Source of the DNA: Candidatus Omnitrophota bacterium
GTDB lineage: Bacteria; Omnitrophota; Gorgyraeia; Gygaellales; Profunditerraquicolaceae
Direction: 5' to 3'
DNA: 64,000 nucleotides
Assembly: GCA_028712175.1 (NCBI GenBank)
Contig: JAQTQQ010000004.1
Span: 2,180-66,179, forward strand
The position numbers and the translations under genes are program-made. Positions 3,040 to 22,723 of the stretch are shown one piece after another (within the stretch, counting starts at the first letter, position 1; every line of letters begins with the position of its first letter). The notes under the pieces were generated by a model, which made no database searches, was not told the DNA's origin, and worked only from the letters and a program-made list of their open reading frames with translations.

Positions 3040-3165
3040 ACAGCGGTAATCTTCTTCCATCTGGACTTTACACCCTAACCAACTTTAAAATGGGTGCCCG
3101 TTTTATTACGGAACCATCGGCCCTGGAATTTCACCAGATCTGTCCGCCATTGAATCAGTGGCGGA
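3040..3165 (-). ncRNA. FMN riboswitch (RFN element) aptamer
   Basis: The minus strand contains GGUGAAAUUCCAGGGCCGAUGGU ... AAAGUCCAGAUGGAAGAAG. This matches the conserved RFN cores (GGUGAAAUUCC; CCGxCGGU; AAAGUCUGGAUGGGAGAAGG) and has P1 pairing AUCUGG/CCAGAU. It lies upstream of ribBA. Confidence 0.75.
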
Positions 3166-3279
3166 CTCGCGGGCTTTTACAACTTAACCATATTTTTGGT
3201 TTATTGTGCTCTACCGCCGGTAAGGATTTACACCTTGCCCTGAAGATTAACTGAAATTATTTTACCAGAGAAACTAAAC

Positions 3280-17957: not shown

Positions 17958-18074
17958 TAGCTATTAGCTCGTAGCTATTAGCTCTTAGAAAAACATTGTT
18001 TACAGCAAAATAAGGTTAAAAGGCTAAACAGAAAACACTTGGTTTCTAGCTCTTAGCTCATAGCTAAGAGCTAA
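17958..18074. repeat. Modular intergenic palindromic repeat, copy A (heptad arm, core1, core2, inverted heptad arm)
   Basis: Left arm TAGCTAT/TAGCTCG/TAGCTAT/TAGCTCT heptads, then core1 aaaaacattgtttacagcaaaataagg, core2 aaggctaaacagaaaacacttggtttc, and a palindromic right arm agctcttagctcatagctaagagct. Copy B at 18265-18430 has a near-identical layout. Confidence 0.7.
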
Positions 18075-18264
18075 ATCCCATCAACAGTACAAACGCTGCT
18101 AATATTGCTAATATTGCAATAATGAATACAATCTTATGCTTCGGGTATCGCAACCTGCCCATGAAACCAACACTACGATTTAAGCTCTCTCCGCAGAAAA
18201 TGCAAAACAACGCCTCATCATCATATATCGGCTGTTTGCAATGGGGACATGTGTATGCGCTCAT
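18064..18264 (-). CDS. Small zinc-ribbon membrane protein (CPHC...CIFC plus C-terminal TM helix)
   Basis: 66 aa with two CxxC pairs and a hydrophobic C-terminus. There is no clear SD. The stop and last codons lie inside repeat arm R1, and the start abuts repeat copy B. Confidence 0.45.
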   Translation of the reverse strand: MSAYTCPHCKQPIYDDEALFCIFCGESLNRSVGFMGRLRYPKHKIVFIIAILAILAAFVLLMGFSS

Positions 18265-18498: not shown

Positions 18499-18753
18499 AT
18501 GTTAAAAGAATGCGTAATCTGCAAAAAAGGTGCACTTCAAGGGAAAGTATTATCCAGAAAGGGCCAATATAAAGCTAAAGGCGGTACAGGTTCAAAGATT
18601 GCCCGCTGGAGCAAGCGTAAATTTCTGCCTAATCTACAAAAGGTAAATATGGTGGTCGAGGGAACTTCCAAGAGGGTCTTTATCTGCGCCAAATGCATTA
18701 AAAAAGGCGATTTCAAAAAAGCAGTCCCCAGAAAACCTAGACCCACTACTTAA
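18499..18753 (+). CDS. rpmB: 50S ribosomal protein L28 (Zn-ribbon C+ form)
   Basis: 84 aa matching the L28 pattern CxICxKG ... RxFxPNLQ ... CAKCxKxG. Has a strong SD. Confidence 0.85.
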   Translation: MLKECVICKKGALQGKVLSRKGQYKAKGGTGSKIARWSKRKFLPNLQKVNMVVEGTSKRVFICAKCIKKGDFKKAVPRKPRPTT

Positions 18754-20434
18754 AAAATATATCTTTGGCCTCAAGGATTATTGATTCTTCCCTGCGCCAG
18801 CTGTCTATTTTTGGCGTATAAATAAGATCAAAAAATTCTGCCTGCAGCAGGCTCTCTCTTAAACCACTCATACCAAAAGCAATAACCTGCCAAGTAGTAG
18901 CTCCATCGGTTGCCCAAAACTTTAGTGTCCCGCGATTTAAAAGCTGTATTTCTCCTTTTAGCTTTAAAGAACGCGTATAAAATAAAGGTTCGGGATTTTC
19001 CATGCCAAACGGTTCTAAAAGCTCTAATTCTTTAACCAAACCTTCATTTAATTCGGCAAAACTAATTTCCAAATCAATATCCTTACTGGGGAGCAAATCC
19101 TCCAAAGTTAATCTGTCGCTGGCCAGCCTGTTGATACTCTTCCTAAAATCATCAATATTATCTTTGGTAATTAATAAACCTGCGGCATGAGCGTGGCCTC
19201 CAAAACTGTTTAAGAGCTCCTTACAATCGAGAAGTGCATTAAAAAGATGGAAATTCTTAATTGAACGCGCCGAACCCTTGCATAACTCTTCACTTAAAGA
19301 GATCACTATTGCCGGACGGTAAAATCTGTCGGCAAGTTTAGAGGCAACAATGCCTAAAACACCCTGATGCCAATCTTCTTTGGCAATTACAATTACTTTA
19401 TGGTCTTTAAAATTAACCTGTGCGTTAATCAATTGTTCCGCTTCTTCTAAAATCTTGCCTTCGATCTTCTGGCGCTGGCGATTTAGCTGTTCTAATTCTC
19501 TGGATAAATTTTGCGCCTCTGCCTCACTCCGGCTCATCAATAATTTTAATGACACCTCAGCGCTAGAGATCCTGCCGGCTGCATTCAAGCGGGGGGCAAT
19601 AATAAAACTTACATAAGTAGAATTAAACTTCTTATTTTCAATGCCTGCATTTTCAATTATAGCGCGCAGACCCCATCTTTTGGTTTCCGGCAGCCTCAAC
19701 AAACCTTCTTTGGCGATAATCCGGTTTTCACCGGTTAAAGGCACACTATCTGCGATTGTACCTAAAGTTACCAAATCCAGATCATCGGGCAACAAAGAAC
19801 CTGACAGGCCTTGAGCAAATTTATAAGCCACCCCCACCCCGGCTAACTCCCTGTAAGGATAAGTTGAATGTTTTACTTTTGGATTAATAATACAGGATGC
19901 CCCTGGCAAATTTGAATTCTGCGGCTCATGATGATCCGTAATAATCACGTCAATATTTGCCCGTCTTAAAGCCTCTATCTCTTTATGGTTGGTTATACCG
20001 CAGTCAGCAGTAACCATAAGCTTAACATGGTTTTTCACAGCAAAATCAACAATATCTTGATTTAACCCGTAACCTTCGGTAATCCTATGGGGGATATGGT
20101 GTAGAACAACTAAACCTATCGCCTCAAGCCTATTTTTAAGCAAAACTGTACTAGTAATCCCATCCACATCATAGTCTCCAAAAACCATTACTTTTTCATT
20201 ATTAGCCTCTGCCTTTTTAACCAAGCTGATTGCCTTAGGCATATCCGTGAATAGGTGCGGGCTAAATAAATCTGCGATTGAAGGTTTTAGAAACTTTTCT
20301 GCTTGAGCTGCGGTAATTATCTTGCGGTTAATCAAGATCTGGGCCAGTATTTTTGAAATACCTAATTCTTTTGCAAATTGATTCTGCAGGGAAACATGCG
20401 GGGCGGCTATTCGTAAGATTGTGTGACTGGACAT
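18746..20434 (-). CDS. recJ: Single-stranded-DNA-specific exonuclease RecJ
   Basis: 562 aa with DHH motifs (DYDVDGITS, ITDHHEP) and a DHHA1 domain. Confidence 0.9.
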   Translation of the reverse strand: MSSHTILRIAAPHVSLQNQFAKELGISKILAQILINRKIITAAQAEKFLKPSIADLFSPHLFTDMPKAISLVKKAEANNEKVMVFGDYDVDGITSTVLLKNRLEAIGLVVLHHIPHRITEGYGLNQDIVDFAVKNHVKLMVTADCGITNHKEIEALRRANIDVIITDHHEPQNSNLPGASCIINPKVKHSTYPYRELAGVGVAYKFAQGLSGSLLPDDLDLVTLGTIADSVPLTGENRIIAKEGLLRLPETKRWGLRAIIENAGIENKKFNSTYVSFIIAPRLNAAGRISSAEVSLKLLMSRSEAEAQNLSRELEQLNRQRQKIEGKILEEAEQLINAQVNFKDHKVIVIAKEDWHQGVLGIVASKLADRFYRPAIVISLSEELCKGSARSIKNFHLFNALLDCKELLNSFGGHAHAAGLLITKDNIDDFRKSINRLASDRLTLEDLLPSKDIDLEISFAELNEGLVKELELLEPFGMENPEPLFYTRSLKLKGEIQLLNRGTLKFWATDGATTWQVIAFGMSGLRESLLQAEFFDLIYTPKIDSWRREESIILEAKDIFFK

Positions 20435-22075
20435 TTACATCTTCTCAGGTTGGGCTATCCCTAACAACTCTAATCCGCAGGATAAAACAATTTTTGTACC
20501 TGTAATCAAGGCAACCCGGGCGCAAGTTAAAACATCACTCTGACCCAAAACACGGTGCAGATCATAAAACTTATGGAAACTTTCTGAAAGTTCCTGTAGA
20601 TATACCGTAAGCATGTAGGGATCGCAAGTAACCAAGCAAATATTAAGGACTGCCTCAAATTCAAGCATTTTCTTAATAAGGCCCAGCTCTTCTTTTTCTT
20701 TAAGCACAGAAAGGTCTAAACCTTCCATGCCTGCGGCAGGCGGACTGCTGCGTAATATACTGCAAATACGCGCATGCGCATACTGCACATAATATACGGG
20801 ATTTTCGGCACTCTGTTTTTTGGCTACTTCAAGGTCAAAATCCAAGTGGCTTGAAGTGCGGCGCATCAAAAAGAAAAACCTTGCGGCATCTTTTCCCACC
20901 TCATCTAAAACTTCCCGTAAAGTTATATACTGGCCGCGCCGGGTAGACATTTGCACTTCTTGGCCGTAGCGAAAAATAGTAGCTAATTGGACAATAACTA
21001 CGGACAAATCATCCTTATTATGCCCAAATGCCTCAATCGAAGCTTTAATACGGTTAATATACCCATGATGATCCGGGCCCCAAAGATTAATCAGCCAGCT
21101 GTAACCACGATCAAACTTGTCCTGATGATAAGCAATATCCGGAGCCAGGTATGTCTGACTTCCATCGCTCTTAATAATCACCCGGTCTTTATCGTCGCCA
21201 AATACGGTTGATTTAAACCAAAGCGCCCCATCCTGTTCATATAAGAATTCTTTTTGCTTTAATTGCTCAAATGCTTTCTCAACCTTGCCACTTTTAGCCA
21301 GCGCTTTTTGTGAATACCAACAATCAAATTTAACCCCAAAATCATCCAGCTCCTGTTTAATAATTTTAAGGATGTACCCGGAAGCAAAATCACCCAAATC
21401 TTCTTCTTTGATTCCCTTAGCTTGCGCTTCCTGGGCAATGTCTTTGATATAATCGCCCTGATAATAGTTCTCAGGAAACTCTGTCGTTTCACCTTGTAAT
21501 TCTTTAAGCCTAAGCTGGACTGACTTACCTAAAATATTTATCTGGTTACCCTCATCGTTTAAATAATATTCGCGCGAAACCTGAAAATTTAGAAAATCCA
21601 AGATACTGGCAAGACAATCACCAACCGCTGCCTGACGGGCATGGGCAACCGACAAAGAACCGGTAGGGTTAGCGCTGACAAATTCAATTAGAACCTTCCT
21701 GGTACCTCCTAAATCCGCCTTTAATGCCTCTTTGCCTACTGCAATTATCTTACGCAGTTTCTCATAAAAATAATCCTCTTTAAGATAAAAATTTATAAAA
21801 CCTGCCCCCTCTACTTTTACTTTAGTAACCAATTCTTTTAATCCTGTCTTAGCTATTTCCTTCTGGATAAACTCAACTAACCGGCTAGCAATGACCCTAG
21901 GCTGCTGTTTTAACTCTTTACTTAATTTTAAGGCAATATTAGTGGTAAAATCACCAAAACGCTTATCCGTAGGAAGATCCATTAAAATCGCTTCTTGGCC
22001 ATCCTTAAGGTAGCCTAAGTGCCTAAGAGCTGCGCCCACTAAATCAATAAGCTCTTTTGTAATATCGTTCGTCAT
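20435..22075 (-). CDS. argS: Arginyl-tRNA synthetase
   Basis: 546 aa with a class I ArgRS catalytic core and a DALR anticodon-binding domain. Confidence 0.92.
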   Translation of the reverse strand: MTNDITKELIDLVGAALRHLGYLKDGQEAILMDLPTDKRFGDFTTNIALKLSKELKQQPRVIASRLVEFIQKEIAKTGLKELVTKVKVEGAGFINFYLKEDYFYEKLRKIIAVGKEALKADLGGTRKVLIEFVSANPTGSLSVAHARQAAVGDCLASILDFLNFQVSREYYLNDEGNQINILGKSVQLRLKELQGETTEFPENYYQGDYIKDIAQEAQAKGIKEEDLGDFASGYILKIIKQELDDFGVKFDCWYSQKALAKSGKVEKAFEQLKQKEFLYEQDGALWFKSTVFGDDKDRVIIKSDGSQTYLAPDIAYHQDKFDRGYSWLINLWGPDHHGYINRIKASIEAFGHNKDDLSVVIVQLATIFRYGQEVQMSTRRGQYITLREVLDEVGKDAARFFFLMRRTSSHLDFDLEVAKKQSAENPVYYVQYAHARICSILRSSPPAAGMEGLDLSVLKEKEELGLIKKMLEFEAVLNICLVTCDPYMLTVYLQELSESFHKFYDLHRVLGQSDVLTCARVALITGTKIVLSCGLELLGIAQPEKM

Positions 22076-22114: not shown

Positions 22115-22471
22115 CTATTTTTTAGGAGTTCCCACTCTTACTCTTTTAGCATCGGACCAGAGCCCCTCTAAAGAATAAAACTCTCTCACAGGTTTATAAA
22201 ACGAATGGGCTATCACAGAAACATAATCAAGGGCTATCCACCCTGATTCGTCGTTCGGAGAAACCTTAGAGAGAGATTTTATTTTTTTTATTTCAAGGTC
22301 ATCCTTGATCGCCTGAGCTATCGCAGTAGCCTGCCTTAAAGAATTACCGCTTGCAATAACAAAATAATCGCAAAACCCGGCAACCTTGGAAACATCGAGA
22401 ATAACAACCTGCTCGGCTTTTTTAGACTTAGCAACCCAAGCAATGCGTTGCGCTAAAGTTTTCGAGTCTAT
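22115..22471 (-). CDS. rsfS: Ribosomal silencing factor RsfS (Iojap family). Has no ATG/GTG/TTG start, so an AUA start is proposed.
   Basis: The reverse translation reads IDSKTLAQRIAWVAKSKKAEQVVILDV...SGWIALDY...SLEGLW, a full-length RsfS with no Met anywhere. AGGAG sits 6 nt upstream of ATA, and an in-frame stop lies immediately upstream. Confidence 0.7.
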   Translation of the reverse strand: MDSKTLAQRIAWVAKSKKAEQVVILDVSKVAGFCDYFVIASGNSLRQATAIAQAIKDDLEIKKIKSLSKVSPNDESGWIALDYVSVIAHSFYKPVREFYSLEGLWSDAKRVRVGTPKK

Positions 22472-22498
22472 TTTCTACTCCTATCTAAAGAAGACCGT

Positions 22499-22648
22499 TT
22501 ATTTCTTTCCTAAGATCTTATACATTCCGGTTCCGCATTCCGGACACTTGCCTTTCATTGCCGCGCGGCCATTTTTCATAGTAACTTTCTGTTCATCCTT
22601 CATAGATTTCTTACCTTTACATTTTACGCAATATCCTGTTTCTGCCAT
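22499..22648 (-). CDS. 49-aa zinc-ribbon microprotein (CxxC...CxxC), conserved-hypothetical type
   Basis: MAETGYCVKCKGKKSMKDEQKVTMKNGRAAMKGKCPECGTGMYKILGKK. GGAGG lies 6 nt upstream of the ATG. It is missing from the ORF track because it is under 60 aa. Confidence 0.6.
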   Translation of the reverse strand: MAETGYCVKCKGKKSMKDEQKVTMKNGRAAMKGKCPECGTGMYKILGKK

Positions 22649-22723
22649 TTGATTCCTCCTTTTTATACCACAAGATCGTTCTGATTATAAATAATTTTAA
22701 CACAGGTTAATTTCGATGTCAAT

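What the first reader, a model, noticed from the sequence alone, without database searches (positions are those of the whole stretch)
22499..22648. Unannotated 49-aa Zn-ribbon microprotein immediately upstream of, and coupled to, rsfS
MAETGYCVKCKGKKSMKDEQKVTMKNGRAAMKGKCPECGTGMYKILGKK has two CxxC knuckles and a strong SD. It is shorter than the ORF-track cutoff. The sequence resembles widely conserved but uncharacterised bacterial Zn-ribbon microproteins. Its position in a ribosome-associated context (rsfS, with argS downstream) suggests a translation-related role.
Basis: partly seen in the sequence, partly recalled or inferred. Interest (0 to 1): 0.5.

Follow-up and report, generated by a model that had tools for sequence, protein, structure and literature searches.

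The report
Conserved DUF5679 zinc-ribbon microprotein gene
The 49-residue ORF is a real, strongly conserved gene of the catalogued but uncharacterised DUF5679 zinc-ribbon family; it sits next to rsfS only in one phylum (Omnitrophota), and its fusion partners elsewhere suggest it binds nucleic acid, probably DNA, and give no support for a ribosome-specific role.

Summary
The ORF at 22499..22648 (minus strand) is real. It has a GGAGG Shine-Dalgarno site 6 nt before the ATG and a near-consensus sigma-70 promoter. It matches Pfam PF18930 (DUF5679) over the full domain (E 1e-15), and its 13-15 differences from related contigs are all synonymous. It is not new: NCBI already names the same protein "DUF5679 domain-containing protein" in Omnitrophota MAGs.

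The order DUF5679-rsfS-argS is kept in 31 of 33 Omnitrophota-type species genomes, even where RsfS has diverged to 32% identity. None of about 47 genomes from other phyla has rsfS within 6 kb, and neighbours there are heterogeneous.

Domain fusions suggest nucleic-acid binding instead. These are the N-terminus of topoisomerase I in Chloroflexota, AT-hook-like linkers, and Lys/Ser/Ala-rich tails in phage and giant-virus homologues. The AlphaFold model is a five-strand zinc ribbon whose best, non-significant, match is the chromatin protein Cren7. No experiment exists.

Side finding: the gene that public annotation actually misses is rsfS. It starts with a conserved ATA codon in at least 17 Omnitrophota species.

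The parts
22694..22722 (-). Sigma-70-type promoter-like site: TTGACA, 17-nt spacer, TG-extended TAAAAT. It lies directly after the stop codon of the upstream CNNM/CBS gene.
   Evidence: 11 of 12 consensus matches with a TG before the -10 element. This is a consensus match only. The total number of such sites in the region was no higher than in shuffled sequence.
22655..22659 (-). Shine-Dalgarno GGAGG, 6 nt upstream of the ATG of the Zn-ribbon ORF.
   Evidence: sequence. It is invariant in the alignment of four related contigs.
22499..22648 (-). 49-aa DUF5679 (PF18930) Cys4 zinc-ribbon protein: pI 9.7, 13 Lys/Arg against 4 Asp/Glu.
   Evidence: AlphaFold2 model with pLDDT 81.9 and five beta-strands.
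22478..22482 (-). AGGAG Shine-Dalgarno for rsfS, 6 nt upstream of the ATA codon.
   Evidence: An equivalent GGAG or GAGG precedes the ATA in other Omnitrophota.
22115..22471 (-). rsfS (118 aa), starting at a non-canonical ATA codon (22471..22469). There is no in-frame ATG, GTG or TTG before codon 86.
   Evidence: translation; Pfam RsfS E 5.6e-25; not called in public annotation; ATA conserved in 17 of 31 species.
20435..22075 (-). argS (arginyl-tRNA synthetase), third gene of the conserved block.
   Evidence: Pfam Arg_tRNA_synt_N, tRNA-synt_1d, DALR_1. It lies downstream of rsfS in 28 Omnitrophota loci.
18746..20434 (-). recJ-like DHH/DHHA1 exonuclease gene, abutting argS. It is the probable last gene of the transcription unit.
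   Evidence: It is the third gene downstream in 14 loci.

Best explanation
The ORF encodes a stand-alone member of the DUF5679 family: one Zn(Cys4) ribbon of five beta-strands carrying a strongly basic surface. I propose that the zinc site holds the small fold rigid. The conserved Lys/Arg residues and the near-invariant MKNGR loop between strands 3 and 4 would then contact nucleic acid, most likely DNA. The free protein would act as a small nucleic-acid-binding or architectural protein.

In Omnitrophota the gene is the promoter-proximal member of a conserved DUF5679-rsfS-argS(-recJ) block, so its expression is tied to translation-related genes. Nothing shows that it binds RsfS or the ribosome.

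Shown: the gene is real, it belongs to the family, it is under purifying selection, the synteny is phylum-restricted, and the fusion architectures exist. Inferred: zinc binding, nucleic-acid binding, the preference for DNA, and co-transcription.
For: Family membership and selection.

Basic character: pI 9.7.

Fusions:
- About 105 of the 120 best clusters retrieved with P0149 combine PF18930 with Toprim and/or Topoisom_bac. They are named DNA topoisomerase I in Anaerolineae and other Chloroflexota, and DUF5679 sits N-terminal to Toprim.
- P0125 and P0132 carry RGRP AT-hook-like linkers between two copies, and P0126 has Lys/Ala-rich repeats.
- Phage and giant-virus homologues carry AKKA-, KSKT- or SRKS-type basic tails.

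Context: outside Omnitrophota the gene stands alone with heterogeneous neighbours. That fits a general-purpose binder better than a dedicated partner of one pathway.
Against: No experiment on any family member was found; three papers mention DUF5679 only in passing.

Other recurrent architectures do not imply DNA binding and could reflect protein-protein interaction. These are tail-anchored membrane proteins with two copies, FGE-sulfatase fusions and a DUF4062 fusion.

The MKNGR loop is not kept in the topoisomerase-fused copies, which read TNNGT.

The only conserved operon partners are translation-related (rsfS, argS). Identity of 65-80% across phyla and domains is more typical of proteins that bind a universally conserved partner such as the ribosome.
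Confidence: 0.45

Rival explanations
1. It is a ribosome-associated factor or lineage-specific ribosomal protein that works with RsfS, for example in subunit silencing or hibernation. It would be encoded in the same operon so that the two are made together.
For: DUF5679-rsfS-argS order is kept in 31 of 33 Omnitrophota-type species loci, while RsfS identity falls to 32% (median 44%) and the upstream gene varies.

The protein is small, very basic, has strong expression signals and is highly conserved, like small Zn-ribbon r-proteins.

It is retained in reduced genomes of CPR bacteria and DPANN archaea.

The best PDB sequence hit of a family profile is the archaeal r-protein aS34 (E 0.026). Unannotated small Zn r-proteins have been found by cryo-EM before (PMC11698992).
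Against: None of about 47 non-Omnitrophota loci and none of 75 viral loci has rsfS nearby. Neighbours elsewhere show no translation enrichment.

The family also occurs in archaeal MAGs; from my own knowledge RsfS is a bacterial protein, which was not tested here.

Several Omnitrophota have terminator-like hairpins between the two genes.

None of the fusions examined involved a translation domain.

The aS34 match covers only the C-terminal CPxCGT knuckle, and aS34 is a two-zinc, RING-like protein.

No chain of any solved ribosome matches by sequence.
Confidence: 0.2
2. It is a protein-protein interaction module, for example docking onto RNA polymerase or topoisomerase I. The free protein would then be an adaptor or regulator and would not bind nucleic acid directly.
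For: The domain occurs in membrane-anchored, FGE-sulfatase and DUF4062 proteins, where nucleic-acid binding is not obvious. From my own knowledge, the Zn ribbons of E. coli topoisomerase I also contact RNA polymerase; this was not tested here.
Against: The strong positive charge and the repeated association with AT-hook-like and histone-H1-like tails favour nucleic acid as the ligand. No conserved partner gene exists outside Omnitrophota.
Confidence: 0.12
3. It is a regulatory upstream ORF whose translation controls rsfS, which has a weak ATA start, through termination-reinitiation. The peptide itself would be unimportant.
For: The ORF is short and ends 27 nt upstream of an rsfS that starts with a poor ATA initiation codon.
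Against: The amino-acid sequence is 65-98% conserved across phyla, archaea and viruses in unrelated contexts, and is under purifying selection. The spacer to rsfS ranges from about 10 to about 170 nt and sometimes contains terminator-like hairpins. rsfS has its own SD.
Confidence: 0.03

Closest known systems
Pfam PF18930 (DUF5679), named 'DUF5679 domain-containing protein' by NCBI
   Same: It is a full-length match well above threshold. It has the same CxxC-N24-CxxC spacing and the same YCVKCK, MKNGR and CPxCGT motifs. Identical and near-identical proteins are already deposited and named.
   Different: Nothing differs. This is a typical single-domain member. The family has no assigned function.
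C-terminal zinc ribbons of bacterial DNA topoisomerase I (Pfam zf-C4_Topoisom, PF01396)
   Same: Both are Cys4 zinc ribbons appended to type IA topoisomerase. DUF5679 occupies the N-terminus of TopA in many Chloroflexota.
   Different: It is a different sequence family: PF01396 did not appear in the Pfam scan at E up to 1, and E. coli TopA chains appear only at E 7-8 in the profile search. It is at the opposite end of the enzyme, and here it is a free-standing protein.
Cren7 (crenarchaeal chromatin protein with an SH3-like fold)
   Different: The scores are below significance and sequence identity is 13-20%. From my own knowledge, Cren7 has no zinc site and is restricted to Crenarchaeota; this was not tested here.
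Small one-domain zinc-finger µ-proteins of Haloferax volcanii (HVO_2753, HVO_0758 and other C(P)XCG proteins)
   Same: They belong to the same class of object: proteins under 70 aa built around C(P)XCG knuckles, mostly of unknown mechanism (papers listed).
   Different: There is no family relationship. NCBIfam HVO_2753 scores 13.9 bits against a cutoff of 80.
Small Zn-ribbon ribosomal proteins (aS34, eL42/L44e, bL36 and similar)
   Different: No significant sequence or fold match was found, and the protein is not present in any solved ribosome. aS34 binds two zinc ions and is RING-like.

Membership tests
DUF5679 (PF18930) | Score above the Pfam gathering threshold over the whole domain model | tested here: met
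   58.1 bits against a cutoff of 27, E 9.8e-16, residues 6-45 on profile positions 1-40 of 40.
DUF5679 (PF18930) | Four invariant cysteines in two CxxC knuckles with the family's spacing | tested here: met
   C7, C10, C35 and C38 are the only invariant columns in a 47-sequence alignment of diverse members. They are also invariant.
DUF5679 (PF18930) | Zinc actually bound by the four cysteines | not testable with these tools
   Inferred only from the motif and from the zinc-ribbon-like AlphaFold model.
Ribosomal protein or ribosome-associated factor | Sequence or fold match to a known r-protein family, or to a chain in a solved ribosome | tested here: not met
Ribosomal protein or ribosome-associated factor | Genomic linkage to translation genes across lineages | tested here: not met
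   Linkage to rsfS and argS exists only in Omnitrophota (31 loci). It is absent in about 47 loci from other phyla and in 75 viral loci.
Ribosomal protein or ribosome-associated factor | Physical association with ribosomes | not testable with these tools
   This needs fractionation with mass spectrometry, or cryo-EM.
Topoisomerase I zinc ribbon (PF01396) | Match to the zf-C4_Topoisom profile | tested here: not met
   It is not among the Pfam hits at E up to 1.
Translationally coupled gene pair with rsfS | Overlapping or abutting stop and start codons, conserved among relatives | tested here: not met
   The spacer is 27 nt and contains a separate SD in the window. In relatives the spacing is highly variable, up to about 170 nt, with terminator-like hairpins in several.
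Phage or defence-system protein | Match to PHROGs or PADLOC models | tested here: not met
   No hit in either library. Homologues do exist on 75 IMG/VR contigs.

The most novel reading that the evidence does not exclude
Stand-alone DUF5679 proteins could be an unrecognised class of zinc-stabilised, Cren7-like nucleoid or chromatin proteins. They would be shared by small-genome bacteria (Omnitrophota, CPR), several other bacterial phyla, DPANN archaea, phages and giant viruses, and would have been recruited as the N-terminal DNA-binding module of topoisomerase I in Chloroflexota.
Probability: 0.25. Interest if true: 0.65.

Novelty: already known. Interest (0 to 1): 0.35.

Why it matters
As a gene call it changes nothing, because the protein is already deposited and filed under DUF5679.

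The value is in narrowing the hypotheses for a very widespread microprotein with no known function. The family has 2606 representatives at 50% identity, found in many bacterial phyla, archaea and viruses. The rsfS neighbourhood is a phylum-specific arrangement, whereas the recurrent topoisomerase I, AT-hook-like and basic-tail fusions give a concrete, cheap test: zinc content and DNA or RNA binding of a 49-residue peptide.

The side finding may interest translation specialists more. rsfS, which encodes a ribosome silencing factor, uses a conserved ATA start codon and is therefore missed by gene callers. ATA is a type of start codon that IF3 discriminates against, so this may mark a regulatory device analogous to infC.

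Tried and rejected
- **PDB sequence searches.** The single sequence and a 47-member profile gave no significant hit. The aS34 match is confined to the CPxCGT knuckle, and aS34 is a two-zinc RING-like protein.
- **NCBIfam, PHROGs, PADLOC.** Nothing reached threshold.
- **GenBank phages.** One weak hit.
- **Literature.** DUF5679 appears only as a passing domain label in polinton and virophage papers. Nothing was found on a Zn ribbon next to rsfS.
- **Read-through or frameshift fusion of the Zn ribbon to RsfS.** Rejected: three stop codons intervene in the window, and the relative frame varies among species.
- **Leader-peptide reading.** Rejected because the protein is conserved in unrelated contexts.
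- **P0127.** This is a 3179-aa C2H2 zinc-finger array that matches the query but not PF18930, so I treated it as a spurious hit.
- **JGI names.** Labels such as 'RNase P subunit RPR2', 'HypA/HybF', 'DNA polymerase II large subunit' and 'isoleucyl-tRNA synthetase' conflict with one another on near-identical 49-aa proteins. I gave them no weight.
- **First genome scan.** The scan with a 13-sequence alignment failed for lack of a conserved stretch and was repeated with 7 sequences.

Full report
**1. The observation**

GGAGG lies 6 nt before the ATG. A near-consensus promoter-like site, TTGACA-17 nt-TGnTAAAAT with 11 of 12 matches, lies at 22722..22694, immediately after the stop of the upstream CNNM/CBS gene. 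An 88-codon ORF on the opposite strand (22386..22652) overlaps the gene; I regard it as spurious but did not test it.

The window is nearly identical to contig JAQUMO010000004.1 of GCA_028718085.1, which I take to be an Omnitrophota MAG because the closest named homologues are. In public gene calls this exact 49-aa protein is already called and carries PF18930.

**2. It is a real gene of a known family**

- Pfam gives DUF5679 (PF18930) at 58.1 bits (threshold 27), E 9.8e-16, covering the whole 40-position model.
- A word-indexed search found 875 homologues. The best are 80-96% identical, and NCBI names them [quoted passage not shown].
- An exhaustive HMMER search of 1.84 billion cluster representatives found 2606 with E of 1e-3 or better.
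- Against related contigs that encode the identical protein, the 150-nt ORF differs at 13-15 positions. All are third-codon positions and synonymous.
- The protein has pI 9.7, with 13 Lys/Arg and 4 Asp/Glu.
- In a 47-sequence alignment of diverse domains, the four cysteines are the only invariant columns and one glycine is nearly invariant.

**3. Synteny**

I scanned one genome per GTDB species with a family alignment. They come from:

- Omnitrophota
- Bacteroidota, including the cultured genera Flavivirga, Lutibacter and Lacinutrix
- Chloroflexota
- Verrucomicrobiota, including Methylacidiphilum
- Lentisphaerae
- Caldithrix
- Gemmatimonadota
- Actinomycetota
- 'Deltaproteobacteria'
- Margulisbacteria
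- Patescibacteria/CPR
- the archaeal lineages Woesearchaeota and Altiarchaeota

Identity to the window protein stays at 60-98%.

An iterative RsfS search of all six-frame stop-to-stop ORFs found RsfS directly downstream in 31 of the 80 loci. All 31 are labelled Omnitrophota or carry third-party 'uncultured Planctomycetales/Planctomycetia' labels. I infer those labels are wrong because the loci share the Omnitrophota gene order. Two loci with such labels (L046 and L027) lack rsfS, and so do all of the roughly 47 loci from other phyla.

Clustering of flanking genes shows the Omnitrophota block CNNM (19 loci), DUF5679, RsfS (31 loci by the RsfS search), ArgS (28) and RecJ (14). No recurrent neighbour exists elsewhere. 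A Pfam scan of 50 same-strand neighbours from non-Omnitrophota loci gave a heterogeneous list (epimerase ×4, NDK ×3, hydrolases, LacI and others) with no translation or DNA-topology enrichment.

Within Omnitrophota the adjacency is old. RsfS identity to the window's RsfS ranges from 97% down to 32% (median 44%), while the Zn-ribbon protein stays above about 65%.

The spacer between the two genes is highly variable, up to about 170 nt. In L014, L073 and L083 it holds a terminator-like hairpin followed by a T-rich stretch, and L016 and L079 also hold stable hairpins. Translational coupling is therefore not a conserved feature. In the window the spacer is 27 nt, has no hairpin and carries its own AGGAG.

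**4. What the domain is attached to elsewhere**

- **Topoisomerase I.** P0149 has two DUF5679 copies followed by the TopA Toprim signature. A search with it returned about 105 of 120 top clusters that combine PF18930 with PF01751 and/or PF01131. Several are named DNA topoisomerase I from Anaerolineae, Ardenticatenaceae and other Chloroflexota. The sequences show DUF5679 at the extreme N-terminus, followed by a linker and then Toprim.
- **Basic linkers and tails in cellular proteins.** P0125 and P0132 have two copies separated by RPRGRP AT-hook-like linkers. P0126 has AKVKAKVKAEVKA-type repeats.
- **Viral homologues.** IMG/VR holds 75 loci, including giant-virus MAGs. Many homologues there carry AKKA-, KSKT- or SRKS-type basic tails, and none has RsfS nearby.
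- **Other architectures.** These include FGE-sulfatase proteins with 3-7 copies, a DUF4062 fusion, an N-terminal double zinc ribbon, and tail-anchored membrane proteins with two copies. They do not obviously imply DNA binding.

**5. Structure**

AlphaFold2 on a 42-sequence alignment gives mean pLDDT 81.9 and five beta-strands (4-7, 12-15, 17-23, 29-34, 41-45), with the two knuckles at the hairpin turns. This is a zinc-ribbon topology.

Sequence searches of the PDB give nothing significant. The best hit is aS34 of Saccharolobus solfataricus, with E 1.1 for the single sequence and 0.026 for the profile, and it aligns only the KGxCPxCGT knuckle. The paper that describes aS34 shows it binds two zinc ions and resembles RING domains (PMC11698992).

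**6. Interpretation**

The data establish three things:

- The gene is real.
- It belongs to DUF5679.
- Its rsfS neighbourhood is restricted to one phylum.

On function, I commit to a zinc-stabilised, basic, nucleic-acid-binding module, most probably binding DNA (confidence 0.45). The basis is the TopA, AT-hook-like and basic-tail fusions, the charge, and the weak Cren7/NrdR fold resemblance.

The ribosome-associated reading keeps about 0.2. Its support is the deeply conserved operon with rsfS and argS, the unusually high conservation, and retention in reduced genomes. A protein-protein adaptor role gets about 0.12. A pure regulatory-uORF role is essentially excluded.

**7. Novelty**

The family is catalogued and this protein is already annotated, so the finding is 'already known' as an object, with unknown function. 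No paper in the searched library treats the family experimentally.

**8. Side finding: rsfS starts with ATA**

The gene that public annotation really misses here is rsfS: there is a gap between DUF5679 and argS in L001-L004. After an in-frame TAG, the ORF has no ATG, GTG or TTG until codon 86. AGGAG lies 6 nt before an ATA codon at 22471..22469.

In an alignment of RsfS from 31 Omnitrophota species, the codon at that position is ATA in 17. In 15 of those there is no canonical in-frame alternative. The codon at the same position is GTG in two further species. From my memory of the sequence, the position also coincides with Met1 of E. coli RsfS; this was not checked here.

ATA is a start codon that IF3 discriminates against (general knowledge; see the papers listed). 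A ribosome silencing factor may therefore be under IF3-sensitive control, analogous to infC. This is a hypothesis only.

Noticed in passing
window 22115..22471 (-); also L007-L017, L019, L020, L035, L069, L073, L079: rsfS has no canonical start codon. An ATA codon 6 nt after AGGAG is the only plausible start. ATA is conserved at the aligned position in 17 of 31 Omnitrophota species, 15 of them with no ATG, GTG or TTG alternative, and two relatives have GTG at that position. Public gene calls skip the gene. This may reflect IF3-sensitive, infC-like regulation of a ribosome silencing factor.
   Followed up: yes
P0149, P0276, P0291, P0316, P0322 and about 100 further clusters: In many Chloroflexota (Anaerolineae and relatives), DNA topoisomerase I carries one or two DUF5679 zinc ribbons at its N-terminus, ahead of the Toprim domain. 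I found no mention of this architecture in the few literature searches I ran. Many of these database entries are truncated or frameshifted.
   Followed up: partly
L087-L161 (IMG/VR contigs), e.g. L095, L103, L109, L114, L143, L153: DUF5679 homologues occur on 75 viral contigs, including giant-virus MAGs. They are often fused to Lys/Ser/Ala-rich histone-H1- or protamine-like tails. I did not verify that the contigs are truly viral.
   Followed up: partly
P0142, P0162, P0163, P0178, P0190, P0193, P0222: A recurrent family of proteins of about 150-200 aa has two DUF5679 copies ('M-x-YP-D/N-A-YCVKC...') and a C-terminal transmembrane helix, which makes a tail-anchored membrane form of the domain.
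   Followed up: no
L014, L016, L073, L079, L083, between the DUF5679 gene and rsfS: Stable hairpins sit between the two genes. In L014, L073 and L083 they are followed by a T-rich stretch. They suggest a terminator or attenuator, so that the microprotein gene could be expressed at a higher level than rsfS in those species.
   Followed up: partly
L009, L011, L013, L019, L023, L036, L045, L051, L072 (GTDB genome contigs): Third-party MAG records labelled 'uncultured Planctomycetales/Planctomycetia' carry the Omnitrophota-specific DUF5679-rsfS-argS block and near-identical proteins. The taxonomic labels are probably wrong.
   Followed up: no
window 3045..3251 (-): An FMN riboswitch (RF00050, 90.7 bits) is the only Rfam family above threshold in the window.
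   Followed up: no
window 18499..18753 (+): The ribosomal protein bL28 gene is 84 aa and has two Cys pairs (CVIC near the N-terminus, CAKC near the C-terminus), so it looks like a zinc-binding 'C+' form. It overlaps the 3' end of recJ on the opposite strand by 8 nt.
   Followed up: no
window 18064..18264 (-): A second small zinc-ribbon ORF of 66 aa (CPHC...CIFC) has weak Zn_ribbon/DZR-type Pfam matches, all below the Pfam thresholds, and a hydrophobic C-terminal segment. It is unrelated to DUF5679.
   Followed up: no
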